Positions 45,565-64,000 of a stretch of DNA of 64,000 nucleotides are shown here, one piece after another. The position numbers were made by a program, and so were the translations under genes. The notes under the pieces were generated by a model. The model was not told where the DNA came from, did no database searches, and saw nothing but the letters and a program-made list of their open reading frames with translations. Within the stretch, counting starts at the first letter, position 1; each line of letters starts with the position of its first letter. The stretch comes from Patescibacteria group bacterium (GTDB taxonomy: Bacteria; Patescibacteriota; Patescibacteriia; UBA2591; UBA6264), in NCBI GenBank assembly GCA_016784145.1, contig JADHVF010000002.1, positions 112,357-176,356 of the forward strand, given 5' to 3'.

Positions 45565-46158
45565 TTAATTTTTGATAATTTTTTTAATTGTTTTGAAAAT
45601 TATTTTTAAATCATTTAAAAATGACATTTGTTTGACATATTTTATTTGTAGTTTAACTTTTTTTGGTCTTATTTCTTCTAAATAAGTTTTTTCAGGGTCA
45701 TGGCTATTTTTTAAGATTTCTCCTTCATTAGAATTCCATAATGATGCCAAGTCAGTTATTCCTGGTCTTATATTAAAGATAATTTGTTCGTCCTCTTTAT
45801 ATAGTTTAGCATATTCAGGCACTTCTGGTCTAGGGCCAACCAAGCTCATTTCTCCCTTAATTACATTAAATAACTGAGGAAGTTCATCAATTTTGTATTT
45901 TCTTAAAAATTTTCCTGTTTTAGTTAATCGTATGTCATTATTAGGAGTCGAAGGCCCTCCTATTTTATTAGCATTTAAAACCATTGTACGAAACTTATAA
46001 ACATTAAATGGTTTTTTATTTTTACCAATACGAATTCCTTTATAAATAACAGGGCCATTAGATGTTATTTTTATTAGCATTGTAATGATAATAAAAACAG
46101 GGGATAGAATAATTATCCCTATTAAGGAAAAACAAATATCAAAAATTCGTTTAATCAT
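45565..46158 (-). CDS. Small monotopic phosphoglycosyl transferase (Bac_transf family, PglC/WbaP C-domain-like); probably the initiating sugar-1-P transferase
   Basis: N-terminal re-entrant helix and the conserved MSLVGPRPE / ...RPG.T motifs. Confidence 0.85.
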   Translation of the reverse strand: MIKRIFDICFSLIGIIILSPVFIIITMLIKITSNGPVIYKGIRIGKNKKPFNVYKFRTMVLNANKIGGPSTPNNDIRLTKTGKFLRKYKIDELPQLFNVIKGEMSLVGPRPEVPEYAKLYKEDEQIIFNIRPGITDLASLWNSNEGEILKNSHDPEKTYLEEIRPKKVKLQIKYVKQMSFLNDLKIIFKTIKKIIKN

Positions 46159-46934
46159 TTTTTTGAAAAAATAAAGACAATCTTAAAAGCATATTTTTTA
46201 ATCCAGTTATTTTTTAATAATATATAATCTATTTTATCTAAAAATTTGAATATTTTTTTCCCTATTAAAAAATTTCTAAATGGGAACAAAAACATTGCTA
46301 ATAAATGAAAATAAGATATTTTTTCTATATTAAAATATTTTTTAGCAAATTTTAAATCTTTGTCTTTAATAATATGCTCCACTGCCCACTTGGTTCTAAT
46401 TCCTCTTTTTTTATTTAGCCATCGCTTTATATTTATTAAGGGGTTATGTCCAAAGGTTTCTATGCCAATTAATTTTCCATTTGATTTTAAGATTCTATTT
46501 AATTCAGGGAATGCTTTTTTTATATTAAGAGAAGAAAATGTCCCTCCATCCCATATAATATCAAAATAATTATCAGGAAATTCAGTCTTTTCGCAATCTC
46601 CTTTAATAAATTTTATTTTGTGGTTTATTTTTTCTTGTTCGGCTCTTTTTTTTGCGATTTGTAATGATTTGTTTGATAAATCAATACCATAAACTTTTGC
46701 TCCTAATTTTGCCAGCAAAATAGAATGCATGCCATGCCCACAACCATAATCTAAGATTTTCATATTAGAAGTGATATTTTGTTTCAACCAGTTTTTACAA
46801 AAATTATAACTTAAAAGCATGTTAATATTATAATTTTCAATATCTTTGTCCCAGTTATTTTTATTTTTTTTCTTGATCCATCTTTCAGATAATTTTTCAT
46901 AGTGAGAAATTTCCTCTTTTTTTCTTTGTTTCAT
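46155..46934 (-). CDS. Class I SAM-dependent methyltransferase (paralog A)
   Basis: SAM motif ILDYGCGHG...GAKVYGIDLS. The C-terminal half is paralogous to the ORF at 48220-49002 (shared EFPDNYFDII, RTKW..H...K). Confidence 0.8.
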   Translation of the reverse strand: MKQRKKEEISHYEKLSERWIKKKNKNNWDKDIENYNINMLLSYNFCKNWLKQNITSNMKILDYGCGHGMHSILLAKLGAKVYGIDLSNKSLQIAKKRAEQEKINHKIKFIKGDCEKTEFPDNYFDIIWDGGTFSSLNIKKAFPELNRILKSNGKLIGIETFGHNPLINIKRWLNKKRGIRTKWAVEHIIKDKDLKFAKKYFNIEKISYFHLLAMFLFPFRNFLIGKKIFKFLDKIDYILLKNNWIKKYAFKIVFIFSKK

Positions 46935-46938
46935 TTTT

Positions 46939-48210
46939 TTATAACTTATATGCTTCTTTTTTCCATTGAATAGCCCATTTTTTTAATCTTTGAAATCCTT
47001 TTTTTATATCTTTTGCTTCTCCGGCAAAAGAAAATCTTAAATGTCCTTCACCACTTGGCCCAAAGGCTGCTCCAGGGATAGTAATAATATGGGCTTGCTT
47101 TAAGATTTTTAAACTTAACTTAAATGAATCAACTTTAGGTATTTTTATCTTGACCAAAATATAGTAAGCCCCCATTGGTGGTTGGTATTCAAAAATATCC
47201 GAGAGATTGTCTAACTCAGAGCACATTAAATTTCTATTAAAAGACATTTTTTTGGTTAATTCTTTAATTGTTTTGGCTGATTGGTCCTTGTTTTTAAGGG
47301 CAGTTATTATTGCTTTTTGAGAAATAGCTGGCGCACAAATAGTCAGAGCATCATGTACTTTAAGCATGTGGTCAATAATCCCTTCATCAGCAAAAGTATA
47401 CCCAATTCTGTATCCAGTTACTCTGTATTTTTTAGAAAAACTACCGCAAAGAATAATTTGATTTCTTATATTAGGAATAGAAGCAGGTGATATATGTTTG
47501 ATATTGTCATAAATAAGGAAATCATAAGTTTCGTCAGTAATTAATATTAAGTTGTGTTTTTTAACAAATTTAGATAATTCTATTATTTCTTTTTTTGAAA
47601 AAACTTTTCCTGTAGGATTAGATGGATGACTGAGAATAATTGCTTTTGTTTTTTTGCTTATTTTTTTTTCACATTTTTTTATGTTTAATGCCCAATTTTT
47701 CTTTTCGTCTAAAAAAACAAATTTAGGGATGCCATTAAACTGTATTATTTGTTCAATATGAGATGCAAAAGCAGGGGAGATAACCAATACTTCATCGCCA
47801 GGATCTATAATTGTGGCTAATGCGCAAGCTAATCCTTCTTGTGCTCCAGTAGAAATCATTATCTCTTTTTTTGCCTTGATATTGGTTATTTTTTTTTCTT
47901 TTTTTAAAAAATTAGCCACCAGTTCCCTTAATTCAGTGATGCCTGGCTCAAGAGTATAAAAAGCAGTTGTTTTTTTATCTAAAGATTTTTTAATTCCTTG
48001 TTTTATATAATCAGGAGTATCTAAATGGGGGATACCTTGTCCAAAAGAGATAATTTTATTTTGCCCAATTTTTTCTTCTATTTGGTCTGCCAAAATAGAC
48101 ATTTCTTTAATAGGGGAAATAACTATTTTTTGTACTCTTTTTGAAATATTTTTAGTCCTAAATTTTTTTCCAGCTATTGCAATTGCTGAGCGAGATTGTT
48201 TCTTTTTCAT
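46939..48210 (-). CDS. Class I/II (fold-type I) PLP-dependent aminotransferase
   Basis: HPSNPTG, SFSKKY..TGYRIGY (PLP-binding Lys); 423 aa. Confidence 0.8.
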   Translation of the reverse strand: MKKKQSRSAIAIAGKKFRTKNISKRVQKIVISPIKEMSILADQIEEKIGQNKIISFGQGIPHLDTPDYIKQGIKKSLDKKTTAFYTLEPGITELRELVANFLKKEKKITNIKAKKEIMISTGAQEGLACALATIIDPGDEVLVISPAFASHIEQIIQFNGIPKFVFLDEKKNWALNIKKCEKKISKKTKAIILSHPSNPTGKVFSKKEIIELSKFVKKHNLILITDETYDFLIYDNIKHISPASIPNIRNQIILCGSFSKKYRVTGYRIGYTFADEGIIDHMLKVHDALTICAPAISQKAIITALKNKDQSAKTIKELTKKMSFNRNLMCSELDNLSDIFEYQPPMGAYYILVKIKIPKVDSFKLSLKILKQAHIITIPGAAFGPSGEGHLRFSFAGEAKDIKKGFQRLKKWAIQWKKEAYKL

Positions 48211-48219
48211 ATTATTTTT

Positions 48220-49002
48220 TTATTTTTTTGGATTAGAAAGGATAAAAACAGTTTGCCAGGCCAGCCATTTTATAATTGGAATTCTAAGTATTATTGAATC
48301 AATTTTTTCAAAAAATGTTAAAACAAAATTAAATATTTTTAAATTTCGAAAAGGTACAGCTAATACAGTAAAAAGGTGAAAGAATTTAATATCATCAATT
48401 TTGTTGAAATATTTTTTTGCATCCATTATAGCTTTTTTGTTCAAAATATGGTTCATTTCCCATTTTGTTCTTAAATGGGGTGTTAATTTTCTATATAAAT
48501 GAAAAATTGGATTATATACAAGCGGTTCATTACATATGATTTTCCCATTTGGTTTAATAACCCTTTTTAATTCTATATATGCTTTGTTTATGTCAAGATG
48601 ATGTAACATTCCAATGCATGTAATAATATCAAAATAATTATCTGGGAATTCAAGCTTTTCAGCATCCATAATTAAAAAAATTGGCTTCTTTTTGATATTA
48701 TTATTGGCTGCTGATTTTTTACAATTTTGAATAGAGACATCAGAGATATCTATGCCAAATGAATAAGCATTATTTTTTGCTAAAAAAATAGCCATATCCC
48801 CATCTCCACAACAATAATCTAGTGTTTTTTTATTAGAACAGTTTTTAATTAACCAATTATTAACAAAATTTCTACTTTTTCTAGTGATTGAATATATTTT
48901 TTTATTTGAAGTTAAGTGTTTATGTTGAGATGCATTCTTTTCTAATTTTTTATCTCTGACTTTGTTATGAAATGTTTTTTCTTCATGTTTTCTTTTTTCC
49001 AT
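48220..49002 (-). CDS. Class I SAM-dependent methyltransferase (paralog B)
   Basis: SAM motif LDYCCGDGDMAIFLAKNNAYSFGIDIS; paralogous to the ORF at 46155-46934. Confidence 0.8.
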   Translation of the reverse strand: MEKRKHEEKTFHNKVRDKKLEKNASQHKHLTSNKKIYSITRKSRNFVNNWLIKNCSNKKTLDYCCGDGDMAIFLAKNNAYSFGIDISDVSIQNCKKSAANNNIKKKPIFLIMDAEKLEFPDNYFDIITCIGMLHHLDINKAYIELKRVIKPNGKIICNEPLVYNPIFHLYRKLTPHLRTKWEMNHILNKKAIMDAKKYFNKIDDIKFFHLFTVLAVPFRNLKIFNFVLTFFEKIDSIILRIPIIKWLAWQTVFILSNPKK

Positions 49003-52262: not shown

Positions 52263-54263
52263 TTATTTGTTATAAAGTTTTGGAATTGAATTTATTATTT
52301 TTAATGTTTTTTCAAAATCAATTTTTATAGTATTACAATACCATTTAATTGATTCATATCTTGGCCTATTTTCGTCTTCAGCCAACATTAATGCTTTTTC
52401 CCTAGTAATTACTCCTTCTCTAATTTGATTACTTCTAAATGTATTATTTTCAGTAAACCCAGCTACTATATAATAAATATAATTATAAAATGCTACTGTG
52501 CCATCACCAATTCGCCAGGTATTTTTTGTATGTGGATCTGTTTCCCAGTCATATTCTTCAATAAGTGTTTTATTTATTTTTCTCTCTTCCCACTTTATAA
52601 AATTATAAATATTAATATTTTGATGTTTAATTAGATAGTAGGACTTAAAGGCGTCTATGGTATCGAATAGCGAAGAATTAAGATATGCCGGATTTAATAT
52701 GTATTCTTTCCCATAAAAATAAAGCATTTTTAATTTATTTTTAGAGGTAAGAGCGTATGTATTTTTTTTGTCAAAATTTGGCTTAATTTTACATAAACCA
52801 GATTTAAAATTAGTTGTTTCTAATAAGTTTTCTCCAAGAATAGAAATTTTTAAATTATTTTGTTTCATAAGAAGATTGGCATAGTAGAAATATTTTTTAT
52901 CCCCAGCCATAAATAAAGGGATTGTTCCAAGGTTTGGCCTTTTTATCCAAGCTAATATATTTTTTTTAATATTTTCCCTTTTTTTTCTAATATCAGCAGA
53001 AATTAAAATATGCTCTATTCCCAGTTTTCCACAAATTCTTGATTGATTCCTTCTGCCCAAATCAGTTATCATTCCCCAGTCATAAGAATAAGCTAATGGG
53101 TTCATTTTTAATTCTTTTTTTAGAAAATGAAGCATATAGCTACTATCTCTCCCTCCACTAAAGGGAACTAGACAATCATGTCGGCTGTTTGGTTTTTGAT
53201 ATTTTTTAAGAATATTTTTTAAATTCTGTTTTCCTTGATAGTTTATTTTAAAATATTTATTGCAATAATTACAAACGCCATTTTTATCAAAATAAATATA
53301 AGGAAAGGTTTCAGGGAGTATACATTGTTTGCAATATTTTATTTTAGAAATTTCTTTTTTTCTTTGTTGGTATGTTTTATAAAATTGATTTGAAATATTT
53401 TGAGCATTATACTCAAAACTGGTGTTAATGTATTTGTCTTTCTTTTTTGAAATTACAGCAATATCTTTTATTTTTCTAGGGACAGATAATGTCTTAATAT
53501 TTGTAAAATTTTGACAGGCTTTAATGTTTGTTTTTTCGTGTTTTATTTTTTTTAAATCTAGCAAAAGATATTCTCCTGCTTTTAATTGAGTGATATTTTT
53601 TTCAGAAAAGTAATTATTTAATTTATTTTTTTTAATGAATTTTTTTAATATATAAAATTCTGACGCAAAAGCAAATATATTGTTTGATTCATCTAAAAGA
53701 TAATATAAAGAACCGTTATTTGTAGCCAGGAGTAAATTATTTAAATTATTAAATAAAATTGCGACAGAAGTCATCCCATAAATTTTATTGAATAATATCT
53801 TTATTGTTTCTGATAAATTTTTATTATTATTTAGTTCAGAAGAAATAATTACAGGAATTATTTCAGTGTCTAATTGGCTTTGTTTTATTTCTTTTGAGTA
53901 GTCTCTCCAGAGGTCTTTAGTATTTACAATTATGCCATTATGGATAACAGCTAGTTTGTTTTTAATTACGGGCTGATTATTTTTATTTTCATGTTCGTAC
54001 CCATCGGTTACTAGTCGCGAGTGTCCAATACATCCAATAAAATTTTTGTTTATTTTAGCAAAACATTTATTAAATGATTTGCTTTTTATAAAATAACGTG
54101 CCCTGTTAGGAGTTTTGCATACATTTATTTTTTTATCATCAATCAAAGCAATTCCAGATGCTTCCTTCCCTCTTGATTCAGATAAAATAAAAAGACTTTT
54201 TATTAGTTTTTTTTGTTTAAAATTAGTTTTTTCTTTTGTTATAACACCAAATATTCCACACAT
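52263..54263 (-). CDS. Asparagine synthetase B-like glutamine-dependent amidotransferase (WbpS/AsnB family)
   Basis: The N-terminus MCGIFG has the catalytic Cys2 of class II amidotransferases. PP-loop LVPFSGGRDSS; 666 aa. Confidence 0.85.
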   Translation of the reverse strand: MCGIFGVITKEKTNFKQKKLIKSLFILSESRGKEASGIALIDDKKINVCKTPNRARYFIKSKSFNKCFAKINKNFIGCIGHSRLVTDGYEHENKNNQPVIKNKLAVIHNGIIVNTKDLWRDYSKEIKQSQLDTEIIPVIISSELNNNKNLSETIKILFNKIYGMTSVAILFNNLNNLLLATNNGSLYYLLDESNNIFAFASEFYILKKFIKKNKLNNYFSEKNITQLKAGEYLLLDLKKIKHEKTNIKACQNFTNIKTLSVPRKIKDIAVISKKKDKYINTSFEYNAQNISNQFYKTYQQRKKEISKIKYCKQCILPETFPYIYFDKNGVCNYCNKYFKINYQGKQNLKNILKKYQKPNSRHDCLVPFSGGRDSSYMLHFLKKELKMNPLAYSYDWGMITDLGRRNQSRICGKLGIEHILISADIRKKRENIKKNILAWIKRPNLGTIPLFMAGDKKYFYYANLLMKQNNLKISILGENLLETTNFKSGLCKIKPNFDKKNTYALTSKNKLKMLYFYGKEYILNPAYLNSSLFDTIDAFKSYYLIKHQNINIYNFIKWEERKINKTLIEEYDWETDPHTKNTWRIGDGTVAFYNYIYYIVAGFTENNTFRSNQIREGVITREKALMLAEDENRPRYESIKWYCNTIKIDFEKTLKIINSIPKLYNK

Positions 54264-55564: not shown

Positions 55565-56122
55565 TTATTCTCTTTTTTTAATTACCTTGCATGGTACACC
55601 AACAGCGATTGAATATGGAGGAATATTCTTAGTAACAACAGCCCCTGCTCCAATTATTGATCCTTTTCCAATTTTTACTCCTTTGTTTATAATGACATGT
55701 CCTCCAATCCAAACATCGTCTTCAATAATTACTTTTCCTATAATAAATCCTTGTTCAGCGATTAATTTATCAGAATCTGTTTTATGGTCAGCAGTATTAA
55801 TCATTGTTCTAGCTGCGATTCTTACTCCTTTGCCAATCTTTACTTCCCCTGTTCCATCAATGATTACCCCTTCATTTAAAGAACACTTTTCTCCAATTTT
55901 TACATTCCAGGGGAAATAAATATTAACCATTTCTCCGATATAAGATGTTTTTAAATTTCTTCCCATGAATAATTTTAAAACAAGATAACGAAGATAATTA
56001 CATAAAGGGAATGGAATATATTTAACCATTCCATACAAAGCAAAATAAATTGCATGAATGAAATAATTTTTAAAATTATGCATTTTATTTCTTGGAAGAT
56101 ATTTTGTTTTTTTTGAATTCAT
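55565..56122 (-). CDS. Hexapeptide-repeat (left-handed beta-helix) acyl/acetyltransferase
   Basis: C-terminal hexad repeats ([42 protein letters not shown]) and a terminal ...GVPCKVIKK. The probable start is the Met at 56122, not 56215. Confidence 0.8.
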
Positions 56123-56127
56123 TTTTA

Positions 56128-57081
56128 TTATTTTTTTGTTAATTTTTTGTTGTCTTCCATGTCTAGCCACATTCCAAAAAAGAAGGAAAAAAAACCCATC
56201 ATTATGGAAAAACAAAGAATAATTAATGTAGTTTTTGGAGCTTCGTTTAATTTGAAAAATAAGTAAAAAAACCTGATCATTAATGGCATGGAAATAAGGA
56301 AGATGTTAATAAAGCTAAACAGGTAAAAAAATATTAATGGATGAAATTCTCTTACAAGATATTTATGAGTCATTCTTCTTAAATATAGTATTAGAAGAAG
56401 ATAACTAACCTTGGGAATATAAGTTATTAATTTTATTTTGCTTTTTTCTTCTCCGTAAATTGGCTTAACTTCAACATCTTGCACTTTAATGTTTGCAAGA
56501 TTTAACATATTTAGAATGTCTGCATTATATCCATATCCTTTTGTCATTTTTTTAATATTTATTGATTCGAGGGCTTGAAGCGAAATAGCAGTATATCCAC
56601 ATTGTGGGTCGATTAAACTCCAGTATCCGGTTGCGAATTTAGTAAGCAATGTTAAAAAAGAATTGCCAATTAATCGATGCATTGGCATGATTTTACTAAT
56701 ATTATGAGTTAATAGACGATTTCCTTTAACATAGCCGATATTTTTTTTAATAATTGGTTCAATGATTTTATGTAAATCATCTGGGTCCATTTGAGCATCG
56801 CCTGCCATAATAGCGATAATATCTATTTTTAATTCAATGCTTTTTAAGTAGCCATCTATCAAAGACTGTCCAAGTCCTTGATTTTTTTTATGATTAATTA
56901 AGATAATTCTTTTATCTTGATTCTTATATCCTTCAATAATATTTTTTGTTTTGTCTTTGCTAAAATCATTGACGACAATAATTTTGTCTACAAAGTTAGG
57001 GATAGTTGCTAGAGTTTTTTCAATTAATTTTTCCTCGTTGTATGCTGGTACAACTACTCCAATAGATTTATTTTTCAACAT
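56128..57081 (-). CDS. Polyprenyl-phosphate glycosyltransferase (GT2, ArnC/GtrB/DPM1-like) with C-terminal TM helices
   Basis: [11 protein letters not shown], DxD (GDAQMDPDD), and two C-terminal TM helices typical of GtrB/ArnC. Confidence 0.8.
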
Positions 57082-57087
57082 ATCTTT

Positions 57088-58050
57088 TTATTTGTTTAAA
57101 TATTTTTTAAGCCAATTAATAGTTGTTTTTAATCCTTTCTCAAAGTTAGTATTAAAATTGAATCCTAATTTTTTTAATTTAGAGTTATCAATGTCAAATA
57201 TTTTTATGTCTCCGGGAGTCCATTCAGTATATTTAATTTTTAGATCAGATTTATTTAGTTGGTTTAATATTTTATCAGCTAATTCTTTAATTGTTACTTT
57301 GATGCCAGAGGCACAGTTATAAACTTCTCCTTTGGTTTCTTTTTTCTGAGCAACTAAAAGGTTAATAGCAGCGATATCTTTAACATAGGTAAATGATCTT
57401 TGCTGTGTTCCATCTCCAAAAATAATAGGGGGTTGATTGTTTAGTGCTTTTCGTCCGAAAATAGATACAACTCCACCAACATCACTAGATTCTTGTCTAG
57501 GCCCATAAACATGGAAATAACGAAGAATCGTAATATCCATATTATAAAGATGCTCAAATGCTTTGGCATATCTTTCTCCTGCTAATTTGCTCACCCCATA
57601 ATATGAGGTTGGATTTAATGGGTGCTTTTCATCTTGAGGAAAATATTGCGCTTCTCCATAAACTGAACCAGTTGAGGCATGTACAACTTTTTTTACTCCA
57701 AAATCTCTGGACAATTCTAATATATTAAAAGTCCCTTTTCCATTAACTTCAAGATCTCTTCTAGGGTCTTTTAGACAAATCGTTTTTTTAGAAGCCGCTT
57801 CATGAAAGACGATGTCAATATTTTTAAAATATTTTTTTAAATTATTATAATCAGTTACATCACATTTTACAGCTTTAAATAATTTATTGTCTTTAAATTT
57901 ATTCAAGTTTTCTTTTTTACCAGCGCTGTAATCATCAATACTAATAACTTGTACTCCTAGATTTAGAAGTTCTTCAATTATATGACTACCAATAAATCCT
58001 GCTCCGCCAGTCACAATTGCTTTTTTATAAAGAAATTTTATTTTTTTCAT
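57088..58050 (-). CDS. NAD-dependent nucleotide-sugar epimerase/dehydratase (SDR, GalE/UXS-like)
   Basis: AIVTGGAGFIGSH, the YxxxK catalytic motif (YGVSKLAGE), about 320 aa. Confidence 0.85.
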   Translation of the reverse strand: MKKIKFLYKKAIVTGGAGFIGSHIIEELLNLGVQVISIDDYSAGKKENLNKFKDNKLFKAVKCDVTDYNNLKKYFKNIDIVFHEAASKKTICLKDPRRDLEVNGKGTFNILELSRDFGVKKVVHASTGSVYGEAQYFPQDEKHPLNPTSYYGVSKLAGERYAKAFEHLYNMDITILRYFHVYGPRQESSDVGGVVSIFGRKALNNQPPIIFGDGTQQRSFTYVKDIAAINLLVAQKKETKGEVYNCASGIKVTIKELADKILNQLNKSDLKIKYTEWTPGDIKIFDIDNSKLKKLGFNFNTNFEKGLKTTINWLKKYLNK

Positions 58051-58053
58051 AGT

Positions 58054-59172
58054 TTATTTTAATAATTTTTTATATACTTTTAATAATTTTTTGCTTTCTT
58101 TCTCCCAATTATATCTTTTTAAAATAGCTTTTTGTCCATTTTCTCTCATTTGTTTTGCTTGTTCTGGATGTTTTATGAAATGTTCAATTGTCTCAGCAAT
58201 TTTTTTAGGTTTTTTTGGATCAACACAAAACCCACAATCATTTTTTTCTATAATTTCTTTCCATAAGGGAAAATCAGATGCAATTATTGGCAATTTATTT
58301 ATCATATATTCAAAAATTTTATTTGGGATTGCATTAATGTGATTTGGTTCAGGGAGAAAACAGATAAGACCTATATTAGCATTATTCATGTGTTGATATG
58401 CTTTTTTTTGAGGTAAGAACCCTAAGAAGTTGATACTATTCCATTCTGCCATACTCTTAATCTCTTCTTCAAACTTTTTTTCAGAAAATTTACCAATTAA
58501 TGTTAATTTTACATTATATTTAGAATTAATATACTTTAAAGATTTAATAATTTTTTTAATTCCTCTTTCTTTTGACAAACCACCAACATAAATCAATTCA
58601 ATATATTTTTTTGAGTTTGCTTCTTTTTTCTTTTCTTCTTTTGGAAATAAAGAAAGAATAGGATAATTTTTAATATCAATTACATTATTTTGTTTAAAAT
58701 TACTTTTAATATTTGGTGTAGCAGTGATAATATAATCTAATTTTTTAGATACCCATTTTTCAAATAAATTAAATAAATTAGAAATTATTTTTCTAAATAT
58801 TTTAGGAATCCAATGTTTAGATAAAATTTGTTTAGTAACATCTTCATGAACATCGTAAATTATTTTTGCTTCTGTTTTCTTTTTTAGTTTTAGCATCCAT
58901 GGCAATAATTCTGGATCATGAAAATGATATATATCTGCTTTTTGTTTTAAGGCTTTTCTATAGGTTAAATAATCTAGTTTTAAAAATCTTTTAATTCTGT
59001 TTCTAGATTTTGGAATAGCAATTATTTTTATTTTATCTATTGTTTCATTTTTATTATGCTGGGCGATTAAAGTAACATTGTAACCTGAATTAACTAATGT
59101 TTTAGTTTGTTTATAAAAAATTCTTGTATCAAGCAAAGGATGAACAGACGTAAGAATGCAAATTTTATTCAT
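58054..59172 (-). CDS. GT-B fold glycosyltransferase, family 4
   Basis: C-terminal EX7E-type motif region (E..NHINAIPNKIFEYM...LPIIASD). Confidence 0.8.
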   Translation of the reverse strand: MNKICILTSVHPLLDTRIFYKQTKTLVNSGYNVTLIAQHNKNETIDKIKIIAIPKSRNRIKRFLKLDYLTYRKALKQKADIYHFHDPELLPWMLKLKKKTEAKIIYDVHEDVTKQILSKHWIPKIFRKIISNLFNLFEKWVSKKLDYIITATPNIKSNFKQNNVIDIKNYPILSLFPKEEKKKEANSKKYIELIYVGGLSKERGIKKIIKSLKYINSKYNVKLTLIGKFSEKKFEEEIKSMAEWNSINFLGFLPQKKAYQHMNNANIGLICFLPEPNHINAIPNKIFEYMINKLPIIASDFPLWKEIIEKNDCGFCVDPKKPKKIAETIEHFIKHPEQAKQMRENGQKAILKRYNWEKESKKLLKVYKKLLK

Positions 59173-60445
59173 ATTTTCTATTTAAGTTTTCTTTTGGTAA
59201 TAAATATAATAATAATAAAGCGAGTAAAAGGCCGTGCGTGATAAAGGCAGTAAGCAAAGCTGTTCCTCGGATGGATAATATAAATGTTGCCAGAACTGCC
59301 ATTACTACTTTAATATTTTTTTTATAAGAAATATTGTCTATTAATTTTAGGATAAATGATAATATTATAGCCCATAACAGCATGCCTAAAAATCCAAAAT
59401 TTATGTATCCATCGCTAATAATTCCATTATTGGGATTACCTGCTGGGTTGCTTAAGTAGTTTTTTGCTATAAGTTTCGAGGGAGATAATTCATATGGATA
59501 ATTTATGAAATTTTGAAAAAAGTGATGCTGAGAAAGATATGTATATGGATTTTCTGAAAAAAAATCATAGTAAAAAAATGATAATTGTGCTGGCACTAGT
59601 AAACTTCGTCGTATAGCAAAAGAAGGGGGTAAGAGGTCATTTGTTGTGTAATAAATTAGTACACTTAACAATATTAATCCGATCAAGCTAATTGTTATTC
59701 TTGAATAAAAGTTTTTTTTATTTAAAGCCCAAATTAATACTAATATAAATGGTAATATGAATAAATATAATTTATTTCCTGTTCCAGAAAATAACAATAT
59801 TTGAAGCAATGTGGTTAATATAAGTAATCCCCATTTTTTTTTAATTAAAAATATTGTAAAAAATAAAGGTCCTATAATTTTTGCAAACCAATTTAATGTA
59901 TAATTAGCAAGTAAGACATGTAGATTAGCATAGCTAGAGCGTATTTCATATACATTTCTGATATTAAAATTTATTTGGAATCCTAAGTATTTATAAATAA
60001 AAATAAAAGATAAAGTTGAAATAATGATAAATATTGTCCATATAATAGCTTTAGATTGTTTTATTTTTTTAATATTTAATTTAAGAGGGATAGCTTGTAT
60101 TATCAAAGAAATTATTATCCAGAAAAAAGTGGAGGCATACATAAAGATTCTTGATTCATCCATTAGGCAGAAAAGAGTAAGCATTGGAATATAAGATATT
60201 AAAAATAGCATCCATAAAATTATATGAGATGGTTTTTTTGTTTTTTTAGGAATGAGAACAAAAACAATGAAAAGTAATAAATATGATTCAATTAATTTAA
60301 AAGAATTAGGTTGAAATACAAACTTAGAGTAAGCCCAAAAAGGAGAAATAATCAAATAATAGGATAGATCTAAAATAACTCTATAAATAATTATAAGAGT
60401 AAATATTTTTATTTTGTTTTTTTTAATTACTAATGCTTTTAGCAT
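59165..60445 (-). CDS. O-antigen polymerase/ligase-like polytopic membrane protein (Wzy-like)
   Basis: More than ten TM helices, a large loop near the C-terminal third, and a neighbouring wzx and GTs. No enzymatic motifs can be assigned. Confidence 0.5.
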   Translation of the reverse strand: MLKALVIKKNKIKIFTLIIIYRVILDLSYYLIISPFWAYSKFVFQPNSFKLIESYLLLFIVFVLIPKKTKKPSHIILWMLFLISYIPMLTLFCLMDESRIFMYASTFFWIIISLIIQAIPLKLNIKKIKQSKAIIWTIFIIISTLSFIFIYKYLGFQINFNIRNVYEIRSSYANLHVLLANYTLNWFAKIIGPLFFTIFLIKKKWGLLILTTLLQILLFSGTGNKLYLFILPFILVLIWALNKKNFYSRITISLIGLILLSVLIYYTTNDLLPPSFAIRRSLLVPAQLSFFYYDFFSENPYTYLSQHHFFQNFINYPYELSPSKLIAKNYLSNPAGNPNNGIISDGYINFGFLGMLLWAIILSFILKLIDNISYKKNIKVVMAVLATFILSIRGTALLTAFITHGLLLALLLLYLLPKENLNRKYE

Positions 60446-61811
60446 CTTTATTTATTTTATTTATTGGAATAACCAAATATTTTTCTTTTGAGATTAATTT
60501 ATAAAAATTTTCAAAGAGTCTTTTCCATTTAGGCGTGAATAATTCAGTCATATAACAATTATGCCAAAGAAAAACAAAAATACCGTTATAATTTTTAGTC
60601 TGATTCAATAATTTAATTATTTCTTTAAAAGCCTCAGAATAAGATAATTTTTTATTGTCTAGAGTTCCATCCATAACAATTAATGGAATTTCCCAAATAT
60701 TTATAACTTTTTTTTTCAAAATATTGAAAGGCTTAAATGGATAACATACTCCACATCTGAATCCATTAAAATTTGCATAACATAATGTTGTGTCATATTT
60801 TAAGTCTGCATTTTCCCATGTTTCCCAACTTTTTGGTCCAGCCCATTTTAGATAATGTTGTCTGCCGCTAGTAATTTTTTTGTTGATAATTTTTTCAAAT
60901 TCTATTTTTTCTTTCTTTATAATTTTTGGATTATTATAGGCCCTGAATCCTGTCTGAATTCCTATTTCAAATTTTTCTTTTTTTAATTTTGCAATTATTT
61001 TTTTTAAAATAGGATTTGATAATAAATATCTTTTATTATCAGTCATAAAATAAAAAGATGATTTAAATTTGTATTTTTTTTCTAAATTGATTATATAATT
61101 TAGAAAAATATCATGGTATGGATCGTTTTTTAGTTTTATTTTTACTTTAATATAATCAAACAAAATTTTTATTAATTTTTTAAAAGCCAATTTTTTAATT
61201 GTTTTTTTAATGGCAATTAGTGGTGGATACCATTTATATCTATCAATTTCATCAACATCATGAGTTAGACAAATAGTAAATTTTCTTTTCTTTCTTGTTT
61301 GTTTTATTTTTAAAAATTTTAACATATTCCAGAGCATTTCTGTATATTCATTTGTTATTGGTCTATGCAAAAATTTTTGTTTATAGGCTAGTGATTCTGT
61401 TGGTATAAATCTGTTATATTTATCTCGTTTTTTTATAACATATTCTTCCCATCTAGTAAGCATAAAAAAACAAGAAGCAAATATATCTATTTTGCAAATA
61501 ATTTTATTGTCAGATATTTCTAATGCATTGTCTCCATATATAATTGGTAAATTTTTTTTTGAGGCAAATTTATTATTGGATTTTTGAAGAGGTAATTGAG
61601 CTATATTTTGAGTAGATAAGTAATTTTGATTTTTAAAATTAGAAAAAAACGAATCCTTAATGATTAATTCTTTTTTGTTTCCTAAAATAATTTTATAATC
61701 GTTTTGATTGTAAGTTTCAATTTGATATTTTAATCCTAAAAATTCATTAAATAAGGTTGATATAATATATTTTCTTTCTGCCAAAAAATTGTTTGGGATT
61801 TTAATTATCAT
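60423..61811 (-). CDS. Hypothetical protein; the C-terminal half is possibly a divergent polysaccharide deacetylase/carbohydrate-esterase-like domain
   Basis: Weak NodB-like signatures (LTHDVDEID, GRQHYLKW, VFLWHN). Low confidence. Confidence 0.3.
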   Translation of the reverse strand: MIIKIPNNFLAERKYIISTLFNEFLGLKYQIETYNQNDYKIILGNKKELIIKDSFFSNFKNQNYLSTQNIAQLPLQKSNNKFASKKNLPIIYGDNALEISDNKIICKIDIFASCFFMLTRWEEYVIKKRDKYNRFIPTESLAYKQKFLHRPITNEYTEMLWNMLKFLKIKQTRKKRKFTICLTHDVDEIDRYKWYPPLIAIKKTIKKLAFKKLIKILFDYIKVKIKLKNDPYHDIFLNYIINLEKKYKFKSSFYFMTDNKRYLLSNPILKKIIAKLKKEKFEIGIQTGFRAYNNPKIIKKEKIEFEKIINKKITSGRQHYLKWAGPKSWETWENADLKYDTTLCYANFNGFRCGVCYPFKPFNILKKKVINIWEIPLIVMDGTLDNKKLSYSEAFKEIIKLLNQTKNYNGIFVFLWHNCYMTELFTPKWKRLFENFYKLISKEKYLVIPINKINKDAKSISN

Positions 61812-61822
61812 TATAGTATTAT

Positions 61823-62734
61823 TTATTTTTTAATTTTATATATGATCATGGATATTATTTGTTTTAAGGAATTATTTTTTATTTTATTCATTATATTATA
61901 AAAATTTACCATAATATAGTTTCCTTTAGAAAATGTCCATTTTAATCTACAGCTTTTGCATCCAGGGTTATAGCAAAGAATAAACTCAGGAGTTTTTAAA
62001 AGTTTGGTTATTTCTATCTTTAAAGTTTTTTTCATACTAGTTGTTTTTGCATAAGCATCTCCTAATTTTCCTTCAGATAAAATTGCATTAAAATTTTTAT
62101 ATAATGGCAAAAACTTTCTAAAACCAGAAACACATGCTTCTGGCCAATTAATTTTAAAAAGTTTAATATCACCATTTTTATTAATATAATTTATTCCTAA
62201 ATTGCGTTGTTTTTTTTGTTTTAACCCGGCTAATTTTATTGCTACATGAGTTGTCCCAACCCCGACTATCTTGTTATCTTTTCCTATATTTAAATTTTTT
62301 GCATTTTTATTTGACATTATCCGTAATGGATTATAAGCAAAATTATTTGCTGTATGATTTTGCATCAAGTTCTTGGCATCATGCCCTATTGCTACAAATT
62401 TTTGAATTGGGTGATGACTACGAAACATTTTTGGATGATTTACCATTGTATTAACAAATATTCCAGCATATGAATGTGTTTTATTGTTGCTAATTTTCTT
62501 CCAATTTTTCTTTGAAAGAGGGAGTTTATAGCAAGAAACAAAAGCTTCAGAGACAATGGTGCCCGTTTCTCCAATTATATCAAGAAGCGCTTCAATCAAC
62601 GTATTGGCCCCTCCTTTAATTGGTCCAATTGATTTCATTGAAACTTTCAGGTTAACTAGATCTCCCTTTTTGAGTCCTAAATTATATAGATCTTTTATTA
62701 TTGTTTCCTTGTTATGTTTATGTTTTTGTTTCAT
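61823..62734 (-). CDS. AAC(3)-family (aminoglycoside 3-N-acetyltransferase-like) acyl-CoA N-acyltransferase
   Basis: The N-terminus LYNLGLKKGDLVNLKVSMKSIGPIKGGANTLIEALLDIIGETGT matches the Antibiotic_NAT (PF02522) signature. Confidence 0.7.
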   Translation of the reverse strand: MKQKHKHNKETIIKDLYNLGLKKGDLVNLKVSMKSIGPIKGGANTLIEALLDIIGETGTIVSEAFVSCYKLPLSKKNWKKISNNKTHSYAGIFVNTMVNHPKMFRSHHPIQKFVAIGHDAKNLMQNHTANNFAYNPLRIMSNKNAKNLNIGKDNKIVGVGTTHVAIKLAGLKQKKQRNLGINYINKNGDIKLFKINWPEACVSGFRKFLPLYKNFNAILSEGKLGDAYAKTTSMKKTLKIEITKLLKTPEFILCYNPGCKSCRLKWTFSKGNYIMVNFYNIMNKIKNNSLKQIISMIIYKIKK

Positions 62735-63644
62735 TATTTTTTCTATAATTTTGAAAAGAAATTATTGCTTTGTGCTTGTTAATTGTTTTCTTTGCTTTTT
62801 CAATTGTTGGTGGAGAAATAAAAATATTATTATATACTGCTATGCCTCTATTTGTTTTTATTGCTCTGTTGTGTAATTTAATAATTTCTTGAGCTTCTGT
62901 TATTTCTTTTTTTGAAGGAGTATATAGTTTTTCTACTATTGGAATTTCGCGAGGAGACATGACTAACATGCCTTCGAATCCTACTTGTTTTGCTTGTTTA
63001 ATATGTTCTTTTAGGCCTTCAAAATTACCTATATCAACATAAGGTGTATCAATTGCTGATATTTTTGCTGCTTTGGCAGCCATAGAAATCATGTGTCTTG
63101 GGACTAATATTGATGTTCCGATAGAATTATGTTCACCTTCTGTTTCTTGCAAAAAATCTTCACTCCCAAAAAGGAGTCCTTTTATTCTGGGTGACGAAAA
63201 AGCTATGTTATAAACATCAAGGACAGCTTCAGGAGTCTCAATAAGCGCTATAATATTAAAGTATCCTATAGGCAGTTTTAACTCTTTTTCTTTGGTGGCC
63301 AATTTTTCACTGAATAATTTAATGCATTTTGTATTATAGATTTTTGGGAATACAAATCCAGTAAGATTTTTAGATGCTATAGCATTTATGTCTTTTGACA
63401 AAAAGCCACTTTCTATTGAATTGACCCTAACATAAATTGGCCGATTATCTACAATATTAGATTCTAGGACTTTTTTGATCATTTTCCTTGCTTTGCTTTT
63501 ACTGTTTTTAGGAGTTGCATCTTCAAGGTCCAGAACCACTACATCTGCATTAGTAGAAAATGCTTTTTTAATGTATTTTTCATTATGCCCAGCACTGAAT
63601 AAAAGGGTTCTTATTATTAATTTTTTTGAATATTTTTTTTTCAT
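62718..63644 (-). CDS. HpcH/HpaI aldolase / citrate lyase beta subunit (CitE)-like (acyl-CoA lyase family)
   Basis: IRTLLFSAGHNEKYIKKAFSTNADVVVLDLEDA matches the CitE N-terminal motif (R..L.VPG........KA....AD.V..DLEDA); about 300 aa TIM barrel. Confidence 0.7.
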   Translation of the reverse strand: MKKKYSKKLIIRTLLFSAGHNEKYIKKAFSTNADVVVLDLEDATPKNSKSKARKMIKKVLESNIVDNRPIYVRVNSIESGFLSKDINAIASKNLTGFVFPKIYNTKCIKLFSEKLATKEKELKLPIGYFNIIALIETPEAVLDVYNIAFSSPRIKGLLFGSEDFLQETEGEHNSIGTSILVPRHMISMAAKAAKISAIDTPYVDIGNFEGLKEHIKQAKQVGFEGMLVMSPREIPIVEKLYTPSKKEITEAQEIIKLHNRAIKTNRGIAVYNNIFISPPTIEKAKKTINKHKAIISFQNYRKNNETKT

Positions 63645-63650
63645 AATTTT

Positions 63651-63995
63651 TTATTTATTTTTTTTAGAAATCAATATTGTTCTTTCAAATGTTAGTACTT
63701 CTTTATTTTTTTGATTATATGCTGATGTTTTAATATGTATAATCCCTCTGTCATTCTTGCTTTTTGACTTTCTTTTTTTTAGCACAGTTGACTTTGCTTT
63801 TATTGTGTCATTAATAAATACAGGATGTTTATGTATTATTTTGTCATAGCTTAAATTAGCAATAGCTTTACCACTTATATCCCTTACAGACAATCCAACA
63901 GTTAAGGAGAAAATCAGTGTTCCGATAACAAGAATTTGTTTATGTTGTGATAATTTTGCGTATTCAATATCAAGATGTATTGGATGATGATTCAT
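63651..63995 (-). CDS. MaoC-like (R)-specific enoyl-CoA hydratase / hotdog-fold dehydratase (possibly N-terminally truncated by the window edge)
   Basis: NHHPIHLDIEYAKLSQHKQILVIG.L matches the MaoC-dehydratase motif (N..HLD..YA..S.FG..IAHG). Confidence 0.6.
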   Translation of the reverse strand: MNHHPIHLDIEYAKLSQHKQILVIGTLIFSLTVGLSVRDISGKAIANLSYDKIIHKHPVFINDTIKAKSTVLKKRKSKSKNDRGIIHIKTSAYNQKNKEVLTFERTILISKKNK

Positions 63996-64000
63996 TGTTA

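What the first reader, a model, noticed from the sequence alone, without database searches (positions are those of the whole stretch)
61823..63995. AAC(3)-like N-acyltransferase plus CitE-like acyl-CoA lyase plus MaoC-like hydratase at the head of the glycan operon: a possible unusual N-acyl (for example hydroxyacyl) amino-sugar decoration module
The first three genes of the operon are not classical polysaccharide genes. An Antibiotic_NAT (AAC(3)) family enzyme N-acylates amino groups of amino-sugar-like substrates using acyl-CoA. MaoC-type hotdog hydratases interconvert enoyl-CoA and (R)-3-hydroxyacyl-CoA. CitE/HpcH-family enzymes make or cleave C4/C5 acyl-CoA thioesters (citryl-, malyl-, citramalyl-CoA). 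Together they could generate a non-acetyl acyl-CoA donor and transfer it onto the amino sugar produced by DegT, as in the N-3-hydroxybutanoyl or N-malyl-type amino sugars of some O-antigens. Alternatively the AAC(3)-like enzyme may be a self-protective aminoglycoside-type acetyltransferase.
Basis: inference. Interest (0 to 1): 0.7.

Follow-up and report, generated by a model that had tools for sequence, protein, structure and literature searches.

The report
Amino-sugar re-acylation gene cassette
Three enzyme genes in a surface-sugar operon of a Patescibacteria genome belong to a widespread, unstudied cassette that most likely makes an unusual acyl-CoA and attaches it, in place of acetyl, to an amino sugar; the acyl group has not been identified.

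Summary
The three minus-strand genes are real and the family assignments hold: Antibiotic_NAT/AAC(3)-fold (61823-62734), CitE-like (62718-63644) and MaoC-like (63651 to the window edge). MaoC is cut by the window end. The trio is not at the operon head: 6.8 kb of co-directional Wbp-like sugar genes lie upstream. The gene just downstream (60423-61811) is a VimE-like de-N-acetylase.

Among 57 species loci with flanks, the AAC(3)-like gene sits beside MaoC+CitE in 40 and beside the deacetylase in 43. Neighbours are glycosyltransferases, flippases, polymerases and sugar aminotransferases, never a CoA-transferase.

In a reciprocal search the same MaoC-CitE pair mostly precedes a hexapeptide sugar N-acyltransferase, sometimes in the slot where a pseudaminic-acid locus would carry PseH. 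This swap between unrelated acyltransferases supports acyl-donor supply and transfer.

Best reading: a variant of the Wbp/Vim "deacetylate, then re-acylate" route. Self-resistance and itaconate catabolism are not supported.

Caveats:
- All 89 cassette CitE proteins lack the lid Asp.
- The AAC(3)-like subfamily lacks the motif Glu.
- The window's deacetylase has Gln for a near-invariant His.

The chemistry is inferred only.

The parts
63651..64000 (-). 3' part of a MaoC-type (mesaconyl/itaconyl-CoA-hydratase-like) hot-dog hydratase gene. The first 44 codons lie beyond the window end; the full protein is 158 aa.
   Evidence: Pfam MaoC_dehydratas 47.1 bits and MC_hydratase 41.4 bits. Full length on L001 9518-9994. 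NCBIfam RipB/Ich 163 bits against a cut-off of 340. Best solved relatives are beta-methylmalyl-CoA dehydratases 8HGN and 4E3E. The motif TMNHHPxH is conserved in 53 relatives.
62718..63644 (-). CitE-like (HpcH/HpaI TIM-barrel) acyl-CoA lyase homologue of a subfamily that has [S/G]-P-P in place of the lid Asp.
   Evidence: HpcH_HpaI 141.8 bits. citE 178 bits and RipC/Ccl 136.5 bits, both below cut-off. Best solved relative is human CLYBL, 3.9e-31. R73, E41/D42, E136 and D163 are invariant, and the lid Asp is absent in 89 of 89. Its 3' end overlaps the start of the next gene by 17 nt.
61823..62734 (-). Antibiotic_NAT (AAC(3))-fold N-acyltransferase of a glycan-locus subfamily (motif GVGTTHVA[IV], C-terminal Cys cluster).
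   Evidence: Pfam Antibiotic_NAT 85.4 bits. AAC_3 85.7 bits against a cut-off of 270. 65 relatives at 38-61% identity. Invariant residues are listed. Motif alignment with AAC(3)-VIa is.
60423..61811 (-). VimE-like de-N-acetylase (DUF7033), the most frequent neighbour of the AAC(3)-like gene. The window copy has Gln286 where 47 of 48 relatives have His.
   Evidence: NCBIfam VimE NF053580, 6.7e-62, 209.5 bits (cut-off 440), aligned over 397 of 431 profile positions. Pfam DUF7033 106 bits. Within 6 kb of the AAC(3)-like gene in 43 of 57 loci. His286Gln is shown.
59165..60445 (-). Multi-pass membrane protein, probably a repeat-unit polymerase (Wzy-like).
   Evidence: TIGR04370, 7.5e-10, 38.4 bits against a cut-off of 40. 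No Pfam hit. It overlaps the deacetylase gene by 23 nt. Relatives occupy the same position in L026 and L028.
58054..59172 (-). Group-1 (GT4-type) glycosyltransferase that travels with the cassette.
   Evidence: Glycos_transf_1 91.6 bits. Homologues at 37-45% identity lie downstream of the deacetylase gene in many loci. It is the fifth most common family in the locus census, present in 38 of 83 loci.

Best explanation
The trio is the acyl-donor and acyl-transfer part of a "deacetylate, then re-acylate" module for an amino sugar of a surface glycan. It appears to be a variant of the Wbp/Vim pathway.

Proposed steps, all inferred from homology and gene context:
1. The upstream Wbp-like enzymes make a UDP-N-acetylated amino(uronic) sugar.
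2. The VimE-like protein removes one N-acetyl group and frees an amine.
3. The CitE-like and MaoC-like enzymes turn a central CoA thioester plus a 2-oxo acid into a non-acetyl acyl-CoA. Their closest characterised relatives are citramalyl/malyl-CoA lyases and itaconyl/mesaconyl-CoA hydratases, so the product is most likely a C4-C6 hydroxy- or enoyl-dicarboxylic acyl-CoA.
4. The AAC(3)-fold enzyme transfers that acyl group to the freed amine. It takes the role that the FemAB-like VimA plays in Porphyromonas.
5. The adjacent GT1, Wzy-like polymerase and flippase build the modified sugar into the polymer.

MaoC-CitE is a portable donor cassette that elsewhere works with a hexapeptide N-acyltransferase and a sugar aminotransferase.
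For: Family assignments are confirmed.

The genes are tightly packed. Gaps are 6 and 11 nt and overlaps are 17 and 23 nt.

Among 57 GTDB species loci with at least 3 kb on both sides of the AAC(3)-like gene:
- 40 have MaoC and CitE within 6 kb.
- 43 have the VimE-like gene.
- 32 have all three.

These loci span Bacteroidota, Acidobacteriota, Chloroflexota, Cloacimonadota, Zixibacteria, Ignavibacteria, Desulfobacterota and others.

The most frequent other neighbours are GT1, flippases, DegT, GT2, WbpB-like and WbpI-like genes and Wzy. No CoA-transferase or ligase appears among the families common to these loci.

In the reciprocal search, 22 of 24 MaoC-centred metagenome loci have the CitE next door, but only one has the AAC(3)-like and VimE-like genes. 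The others mostly carry a NeuD/PglB/VioB-type hexapeptide acyltransferase and DegT. The Pfam census of 148 neighbours gave Hexapep 19 and DegT 13.

In L131 and in Proteiniphilum saccharofermentans (L175) the MaoC-CitE-acyltransferase block sits between PseF and PseG/PseI, with no GNAT-type PseH found among the genes examined. So two unrelated acyltransferase folds occupy the same position after the same donor pair. Each comes with its own way of exposing an amine: a deacetylase in one version, an aminotransferase in the other.

Precedent for steps 2 and 4 is the Wbp/Vim pathway, where VimE is proposed to remove the 2-N-acetyl and VimA adds Ser or Gly (PMC7468200).
Against: Nothing biochemical has been shown.

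- The CitE-like subfamily lacks the lid Asp (89 of 89 are [S/G]PP). PMC3832036 describes that Asp as conserved across the CitE superfamily and as the proposed proton-transfer residue for C-C bond making and breaking. No substitute residue was found.
- The AAC(3)-like subfamily lacks the Glu of the TxΦHΦAE motif, which was completely conserved in all family members analysed in PMC8956665.
- The window's own VimE-like protein has Gln for a His that is invariant in the other 47 relatives.
- 15 of the 57 loci have the AAC(3)-like gene without MaoC or CitE nearby. The transferase can therefore work with another donor, possibly acetyl-CoA.
- The window's only DegT gene is 18 kb away beside a PglF-like dehydratase, so a complete Wbp route is not demonstrated.
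- The Wbp-like proteins match only at family level.
Confidence: 0.55

Rival explanations
1. The AAC(3)-like enzyme is an ordinary acetyl-CoA-dependent sugar N-acetyltransferase, an analogue of WbpD or PseH. MaoC/CitE then serve some other purpose in the locus, such as modifying a different substituent or another acceptor.
For: 15 of 57 loci carry the AAC(3)-like gene without MaoC or CitE, scattered over the tree. All characterised Antibiotic_NAT enzymes cited in PMC8956665 use acetyl-CoA.
Against: Pairing an acetyltransferase with a de-N-acetylase in 43 of 57 loci would be futile if both act on the same nitrogen. The AAC(3)-like gene occupies the position directly after CitE that a hexapeptide acyltransferase occupies in the other version of the cassette. 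The window already encodes two hexapeptide acyltransferases.
Confidence: 0.17
2. MaoC and CitE are a catabolic or detoxifying itaconate/C5-dicarboxylate pair (Ich/Ccl-like) that merely lies next to glycan genes.
For: The best named families are RipB/Ich (163 bits) and RipC/Ccl (136.5 bits), in the same gene order as ripB-ripC.
Against: Both score far below the equivalog cut-offs of 340 and 375. No CoA-transferase (the RipA/Ict role) appears among the families common to these loci. The pair is embedded in glycan operons in every locus examined in detail, including inside pseudaminic-acid clusters. The lyase lacks the catalytic Asp needed for cleavage.
Confidence: 0.05
3. The AAC(3)-like protein is a self-protective or resistance aminoglycoside 3-N-acetyltransferase.
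For: Antibiotic_NAT fold. The best solved relatives are AAC(3)-VIa, BA2930 and YokD.
Against: It scores 85.7 bits against a cut-off of 270 for AAC_3, and lower against all subclass models. The motif Glu is missing. Synteny with glycan genes is conserved in about 80 species, and no aminoglycoside biosynthesis genes were seen. Antibiotic_NAT members without aminoglycoside activity are already known: FrbF, YokD and BA2930 (PMC8956665).
Confidence: 0.02
4. The proteins have lost catalysis (no lid Asp in CitE, no motif Glu in the AAC(3)-like protein, Gln286 in the window's deacetylase) and act as binding or scaffold subunits, or the window copy is decaying.
For: Canonical catalytic residues are missing. 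The window's CitE also departs from its subfamily at V44T, D107C and D207N.
Against: The substitutions in CitE and the AAC(3)-like protein are fixed across the whole subfamily in many phyla, while all other active-site residues stay invariant: Mg ligands, Arg73, His163 and the TT motif. MaoC is 52-67% identical across phyla. That pattern fits altered rather than lost chemistry. Only Gln286 is specific to the window lineage.
Confidence: 0.08

Closest known systems
Wbp/Vim pathway of Porphyromonas gingivalis and Tannerella forsythia (WbpA/B/E/D, VimE, VimA, VimF; PMC7468200)
   Same: The logic is the same: build a UDP-di-N-acetyl amino-uronic sugar, remove one N-acetyl with a VimE-type deacetylase, re-acylate the freed amine, then hand the sugar to a GT1. 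The gene order acyltransferase, deacetylase, GT1 mirrors vimA-vimE-vimF. The window protein aligns with the VimE model over nearly its full length.
   Different: The FemAB-like aminoacyl transferase VimA is absent. An Antibiotic_NAT-fold enzyme stands in its place, and a MaoC-CitE pair is added, which implies an acyl-CoA donor rather than an amino acid. The host here is Patescibacteria and many non-Bacteroidota phyla without type IX secretion. The VimE match is below the equivalog cut-off (209 against 440 bits).
Itaconate degradation pair RipB/Ich and RipC/Ccl (Yersinia, Mycobacterium Rv2499c/Rv2498c), and mesaconyl-CoA hydratase with malyl-CoA lyase (Mch/Mcl)
   Same: These are the closest named and solved relatives of the MaoC and CitE proteins, in the same gene order. 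The Asn-x4-His variant of the hydratase motif is shared with the Mch C-terminal domain. The Mg ligands and Arg of the lyase are conserved.
   Different: There is no CoA-transferase partner, the context is glycan rather than catabolic, scores are well below the cut-offs, and the lid Asp is replaced by [S/G]PP.
Anthrose operon antABCD of Bacillus anthracis (my own knowledge: Dong et al. 2008/2010; Kubiak and Holden 2012). The operon is mentioned in PMC10050317.
   Same: An enoyl-CoA hydratase encoded in a sugar operon supplies a hydroxyacyl-CoA (3-hydroxy-3-methylbutyryl-CoA) to a hexapeptide N-acyltransferase. That enzyme acylates the amine made by a DegT aminotransferase. This is the same "donor enzyme plus N-acyltransferase" design as the hexapeptide version of the cassette.
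   Different: There is no CitE-like enzyme. The transferase fold differs from the window's. No deacetylase is involved. I did not test the family of AntA here.
AAC(3) aminoglycoside acetyltransferases and the non-resistance Antibiotic_NAT members FrbF, YokD and BA2930 (PMC8956665)
   Same: Same fold. The catalytic His is conserved. A C-terminal Cys cluster recalls the Zn site reported for group 1 (AAC(3)-IVa).
   Different: The motif is GVGTTHVA[IV] instead of TxΦHΦAE, with no Glu. The Thr at position H-3 is replaced by Gly, with two invariant Thr at H-2 and H-1. The context is a glycan locus. The substrate is unknown.

Membership tests
AAC(3) aminoglycoside N-acetyltransferases (Antibiotic_NAT, PF02522) | Antibiotic_NAT domain above the Pfam gathering score | tested here: met
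   85.4 bits against a cut-off of 25, residues 31-240. A profile of the subfamily hits 21 solved Antibiotic_NAT chains.
AAC(3) aminoglycoside N-acetyltransferases (Antibiotic_NAT, PF02522) | Score above the NCBIfam AAC(3) equivalog or subfamily cut-offs | tested here: not met
   AAC_3 85.7 against 270; AAC_3_II 75.9 against 480; AAC_3_IV 58.2 against 420.
AAC(3) aminoglycoside N-acetyltransferases (Antibiotic_NAT, PF02522) | Catalytic motif TxΦHΦAE with His and Glu (PMC8956665) | tested here: not met
   His163 is invariant, but Glu is replaced by Ile or Val and the Thr at H-3 by Gly (GVGTTHVA[IV]). The alignment with AAC(3)-VIa reads 'vTalHyAE'.
AAC(3) aminoglycoside N-acetyltransferases (Antibiotic_NAT, PF02522) | Acetylation of aminoglycosides, or a resistance phenotype | not testable with these tools
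   Needs MIC tests or an enzyme assay.
CitE-like acyl-CoA lyases (CitE, Mcl, Ccl/RipC, CLYBL) | HpcH/HpaI TIM-barrel domain | tested here: met
   141.8 bits against a cut-off of 25. CLYBL 3.9e-31 over residues 7-290.
CitE-like acyl-CoA lyases (CitE, Mcl, Ccl/RipC, CLYBL) | Mg2+ ligands Glu/Asp, the water-binding Glu-Asp pair and the conserved Arg | tested here: met
   E136, D163, E41/D42 and R73 are invariant in all 89 cassette sequences. Their roles are described in PMC3832036.
CitE-like acyl-CoA lyases (CitE, Mcl, Ccl/RipC, CLYBL) | Catalytic Asp on the C-terminal lid hairpin (Asp299 in Rhodobacter Mcl) | tested here: not met
   The window has Ser followed by Pro-Pro. All 89 cassette CitE proteins have [S/G]PP. 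5UGR, 5VXC, 6AQ4 and 4L9Y have Asp at the aligned position.
CitE-like acyl-CoA lyases (CitE, Mcl, Ccl/RipC, CLYBL) | Equivalog-level score for citE, RipC/Ccl or malyl-CoA lyase | tested here: not met
   178.1 against 443.4; 136.5 against 375; 44.8 against 500.
MaoC-type (R)-hydratases of the Ich/Mch kind | MaoC / MC_hydratase hot-dog domain | tested here: met
   47.1 and 41.4 bits on the truncated copy. Both families are also listed for the full-length gene.
MaoC-type (R)-hydratases of the Ich/Mch kind | Hydratase-2 motif with catalytic Asp and His | tested here: inconclusive
   His51 is present. The Asp position is Asn46, as in the C-terminal domain of the mesaconyl-CoA hydratases 8HGN and 4E3E. 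1Q6W, 4FFU and PaaZ have Asp there. I did not establish which residues are catalytic in Mch or Ich.
MaoC-type (R)-hydratases of the Ich/Mch kind | Equivalog-level score for RipB/Ich | tested here: not met
   163.1 bits against a cut-off of 340 for the full-length protein.
RipABC / Ict-Ich-Ccl itaconate degradation operon | Adjacent itaconate CoA-transferase and a catabolic context | tested here: not met
   No CoA-transferase is in the window operon or among the families common to related loci. The neighbours are glycan genes.
Wbp/Vim linking-sugar pathway | VimE-type de-N-acetylase | tested here: inconclusive
   Full-length match to NF053580 at 209.5 bits, below the cut-off of 440. The window copy has Gln286 for a near-invariant His. 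Activity is untested.
Wbp/Vim linking-sugar pathway | WbpA/B/E/D enzymes that make UDP-GlcNAc3NAcA | tested here: inconclusive
   Upstream are a nucleotide-sugar dehydrogenase (TIGR03026, 449 bits), a short GFO/IDH/MocA oxidoreductase, a hexapeptide acyltransferase and a WecB-type epimerase (320 bits). The only DegT is 18 kb away next to a PglF-like dehydratase. The matches are at family level only.
Wbp/Vim linking-sugar pathway | VimA (FemAB-like) aminoacyl transferase | tested here: not met
   No FemAB-like protein is in the window cluster. The AAC(3)-fold gene occupies the position next to the deacetylase gene.

The most novel reading that the evidence does not exclude
MaoC-CitE would be a previously unrecognised biosynthetic route to a C5 dicarboxylic acyl-CoA of the citramalyl, itaconyl or mesaconyl type, made from central metabolites. 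It would give a new class of N-acyl amino sugars in the surface glycans of many phyla, including 7-N-acyl pseudaminic acids. The Asp-less CitE would use chemistry different from all known CitE enzymes, for example a decarboxylative condensation from malonyl-CoA that needs no general base. The Glu-less Antibiotic_NAT enzyme would be the first sugar N-acyltransferase of that fold.
Probability: 0.2. Interest if true: 0.8.

Novelty: new variant of a known kind. Interest (0 to 1): 0.6.

Why it matters
If the reading is right, four consequences follow.

- **A new transferase role.** A fold known almost only for aminoglycoside resistance would have a large natural role in tailoring surface sugars.
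- **A misread enzyme pair.** A pair annotated as itaconate or citrate catabolism would in fact be a common donor cassette for glycan N-acylation. The MaoC component alone has at least 7,985 sequence clusters at E ≤ 1e-30.
- **Better annotation.** Automatic annotation currently names these genes as AAC(3) resistance genes, citrate lyase beta subunits and MaoC dehydratases in gut, soil and sediment genomes. This reading would correct that.
- **New structures and chemistry to look for.** It predicts undiscovered N-acyl groups on pseudaminic-acid, bacillosamine-type and diamino-uronic sugars. It also defines a CitE subfamily whose missing catalytic Asp calls for a new mechanism.

The question is directly testable because cultured carriers exist.

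Tried and rejected
- **Promoter and terminator scans** of window 56000-64000 and L001 2900-10100 gave counts no different from shuffled sequence in this AT-rich DNA. They say nothing about transcription units.
- **Solved structures for the VimE-like protein:** none found. The Bacteroides ovatus deacetylase BoPDA belongs to another family, Pfam15421.
- **The C-terminal 124 residues of the AAC(3)-like protein** alone found no solved relative. Equivalence of the Cys cluster to the AAC(3)-IVa zinc site is therefore untested.
- **A substitute general base in the Asp-less CitE.** I compared 89 [S/G]PP proteins with 9 Glu-lid and 3 Asp-lid paralogues and found no subfamily-specific acid or base.
- **Literature.** DUF7033 gave no papers. 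MaoC or citrate lyase combined with O-antigen or pseudaminic acid gave nothing relevant. An AAC(3)-type gene is listed in the P. gingivalis K-antigen locus but is not characterised.
- **3-hydroxybutanoyl as the acyl group.** I consider it unlikely. Acinetobacter makes Pse5Ac7RHb by swapping only psaD/psaE for psaG/psaH, with no MaoC or CitE (PMC9676051). The MaoC here is also of the Mch/Ich type.
- **Base composition.** GC content of the trio is 26-30% against 22-29% for neighbouring genes, which gives no clear signal of recent transfer.
- **One Pfam census call** failed on a size limit and was repeated with fewer sequences.


Full report
**1. What is in the sequence**

Window 58-64 kb carries a tight run of minus-strand ORFs. 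The three in the finding are:
- 61823-62734, 303 aa: Pfam Antibiotic_NAT at 85.4 bits.
- 62718-63644, 308 aa: HpcH_HpaI at 141.8 bits.
- 63651-63995: MaoC_dehydratas at 47.1 bits and MC_hydratase at 41.4 bits.

NCBIfam places them nearest to AAC(3), to citE and RipC/Ccl, and to RipB/Ich. All three score far below the curated cut-offs.

The solved relatives agree with this. They are AAC(3)-VIa, BA2930 and YokD for the first protein. For the second they are human CLYBL, the malyl-CoA lyases and M. tuberculosis CitE. For the third they are beta-methylmalyl-CoA dehydratase / mesaconyl-CoA hydratase.

The genes are separated by 6 and 11 nt or overlap by 17 and 23 nt. The organism is a low-GC (about 30%) Patescibacteria bacterium. 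This rests on the composition profile and the NCBI name of the identical protein.

**2. Corrections to the observation**

The exact CitE protein occurs on 12 public contigs. One of them, L001, extends 10 kb beyond the window end. It shows two things.

First, the MaoC gene is truncated by the window. The full protein is 158 aa.

Second, the trio is not at the operon head. Six more co-directional genes lie upstream:
- a nucleotide-sugar dehydrogenase (TIGR03026, 449 bits)
- a short GFO/IDH/MocA oxidoreductase
- a hexapeptide acyltransferase
- an SDR epimerase
- a WecB/WbpI-type 2-epimerase (320 bits)
- a 529-aa flippase that ends 13 nt before MaoC

Downstream of the trio, the next gene (60423-61811) matches the NCBIfam model for VimE over nearly its full length. 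VimE is the UDP-2,3-diacetamido-2,3-dideoxyglucuronate deacetylase. The match is 6.7e-62 at 209.5 bits against a cut-off of 440, and the Pfam family is DUF7033.

The rest of the cluster, 39.6-58 kb, holds these genes:
- Wzz
- a PglF-like dehydratase
- DegT
- ThDP-dependent E1 alpha and beta subunits
- a PglC-like transferase
- methyltransferases
- glycosyltransferases
- a glutamine amidotransferase fused to a WbuX-like domain
- a second flippase

**3. Does the trio travel together?**

The AAC(3)-like protein defines a subfamily of about 300 aa with 38-61% identity. A profile scan of one genome per GTDB species found 78 loci across many phyla.

I ran tblastn with the window's proteins, followed by an all-against-all clustering of ORFs. 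Of 57 loci with at least 3 kb on both sides:
- 40 have MaoC and CitE within 6 kb.
- 43 have the VimE-like gene.
- 32 have all three.
- 15 have neither MaoC nor CitE, and 12 of those 15 keep the deacetylase.

The usual order is flippase, MaoC, CitE, AAC(3)-like, VimE-like, (Wzy), GT1. MaoC is the most conserved component at 52-67% identity.

The other frequent neighbours are GT1, flippases, DegT, GT2, WbpB-like and WbpI-like genes and Wzy. No CoA-transferase or ligase appears among the common families.

**4. Reciprocal test**

A profile of the MaoC subfamily found at least 596 stretches in metagenome contigs and at least 7,985 protein clusters at E ≤ 1e-30.

Of 24 loci with flanks, 22 have the CitE next door, but only one has the AAC(3)-like and VimE-like genes. 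The CitE is instead usually followed by a NeuD/PglB/VioB-type hexapeptide sugar N-acyltransferase, with a DegT aminotransferase nearby. The Pfam census of 148 neighbours gave HpcH_HpaI 25, Hexapep 19, DegT 13 and NeuB 4.

Specific loci:
- **L131:** the order is PseB, PseC, PseF, MaoC, CitE, hexapeptide transferase, PseG, PseI. PseB, PseC, PseF and PseI score above the NCBIfam cut-offs, and no GNAT PseH was found.
- **Proteiniphilum saccharofermentans:** the arrangement is the same.
- **Bacillus tianshenii and Sporosarcina:** the cassette sits beside a PglC-like transferase. Sporosarcina also has a DegT there.

So two unrelated acyltransferase folds occupy the same slot after the same MaoC-CitE pair. 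Each comes with a different way of exposing an amine: a deacetylase with the AAC(3) fold, an aminotransferase with the hexapeptide fold. This is the strongest evidence that MaoC-CitE supply the acyl donor and that the AAC(3)-like protein is the transferase.

**5. Mechanistic reading**

The nearest precedent is the Wbp/Vim pathway. There VimE is proposed to remove the 2-N-acetyl of the Wbp product, and the FemAB-like VimA adds Ser or Gly. VimF is a GT1 (PMC7468200).

The window module reads as a variant of that pathway. An Antibiotic_NAT-fold enzyme replaces VimA, and the donor is an acyl-CoA.

The MaoC carries Asn-x4-His (TMNHHPxH). This matches the C-terminal domain of mesaconyl-CoA hydratase. 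It differs from the Asp-x4-His of 1Q6W, 4FFU and PaaZ. Together with the Ccl/Mcl-like CitE, this points to a C4-C6 hydroxy- or enoyl-dicarboxylic acyl group rather than 3-hydroxybutanoyl. Acinetobacter, by comparison, makes Pse5Ac7RHb without any such genes (PMC9676051).

Every step is inferred. None is shown.

**6. Features that do not fit the textbook families**

- **CitE lid.** All 89 cassette CitE proteins have [S/G]-P-P where 5UGR, 5VXC, 6AQ4 and 4L9Y have the lid Asp. PMC3832036 states that this Asp is conserved in the whole superfamily and in malate synthases, except in a thioesterase clade that has Glu. It proposes the Asp as the proton-transfer residue. The Mg ligands, E41/D42 and R73 remain invariant, and I found no substitute base.
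- **Second CitE paralogue.** A minority of loci add a paralogue with a Glu lid upstream of MaoC.
- **AAC(3)-like motif.** The subfamily keeps His163 but has Ile or Val for the Glu of TxΦHΦAE. That Glu was completely conserved in all family members analysed in PMC8956665. The subfamily also has an invariant C-terminal Cys cluster.
- **Window deacetylase.** The window's VimE-like protein alone has Gln286 for a His present in the other 47 of 48 sequences.

The first and third substitutions are fixed across phyla. Altered chemistry is therefore more likely than decay.

**7. Rival readings**

- **Plain acetyl transfer by the AAC(3)-like enzyme** remains possible, because 15 of 57 loci lack MaoC-CitE and are scattered over the tree. 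It would, however, make the pairing with a deacetylase futile.
- **Itaconate catabolism** lacks its CoA-transferase and its catabolic context.
- **Aminoglycoside self-resistance** lacks the motif Glu, the scores and the context.

**8. Novelty**

Searches of the open literature found nothing that links these families to glycan N-acylation. An AAC(3)-type gene is listed, uncharacterised, in the P. gingivalis K-antigen locus.

I rate the finding a new variant of a known kind, namely amino-sugar N-acyl tailoring and the Wbp/Vim type of acyl swap. It has two mechanistic oddities and a very wide distribution.

Noticed in passing
L131 2859-10040; also L175 5283-13013, L119, L132, L172: Pseudaminic-acid clusters in which MaoC, CitE and a hexapeptide acyltransferase sit between PseF and PseG/PseI, with no GNAT PseH found. 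This predicts pseudaminic acids with an unknown 7-N-acyl group.
   Followed up: partly
L127 1635-2456; L012 8157-8993; L173 8184-9026; L174 8184-9017; L175 8187-9014: A second CitE-like paralogue of about 275 aa lies upstream of MaoC in some loci. Its lid carries Glu, as in malyl-CoA thioesterases. It is absent from the window.
   Followed up: partly
window 60423-61811 (residue 286 of the protein): The window's VimE-like protein has Gln where the other 47 of 48 relatives have His in a Gly-x-His motif, possibly a metal ligand. The contig L001 copy also has Gln there, and it differs from the window at the next residue (Pro on L001, Thr in the window).
   Followed up: partly
window 43604-45563: E1 alpha and beta subunits of a ThDP-dependent 2-oxoacid dehydrogenase lie inside the glycan cluster, between DegT and a PglC-like phosphoglycosyl transferase. 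They may add a two-carbon branch or side chain to a sugar.
   Followed up: no
window 52263-54263: A 666-aa fusion of a class-II glutamine amidotransferase with a WbuX/WbpG-like N-acetyl-sugar amidotransferase (142 bits against a cut-off of 203). This suggests formation of an acetamidino group with a built-in ammonia supply.
   Followed up: no
window 46155-49002: Two paralogous SAM methyltransferases flank a class I/II aminotransferase within the glycan cluster.
   Followed up: no
window 61823-62734 (Cys201, Cys254, Cys259, Cys262): These four Cys are invariant or nearly invariant in the AAC(3)-like subfamily. They recall the structural Zn site reported for AAC(3)-IVa. The equivalence could not be tested.
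   Followed up: partly
L173 11674-13891; L174 6025-8140: In Bacillus tianshenii and Sporosarcina, a FemAB-like (VimA-type) gene and an unannotated gene of about 360 aa lie next to the MaoC-CitE-hexapeptide cassette. This hints at further links between Vim-type systems and the cassette.
   Followed up: no
L037 10877-13432; L038 5629-8184; L088 (857-aa ORF after the AAC(3)-like gene): Zixibacteria and Ignavibacteria loci have ORFs of about 850 aa that contain the DUF7033 domain fused to additional sequence.
   Followed up: no
window 1-39340: The first 38 kb is a plus-strand block of ORFs that looks like a ribosomal-protein and RNA-polymerase gene cluster, judged only from ORF sizes and order. 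It is followed by a RecA-like ORF at 38315-39340. The glycan cluster starts right after it on the opposite strand, where the GC skew changes sign near 40 kb.
   Followed up: no
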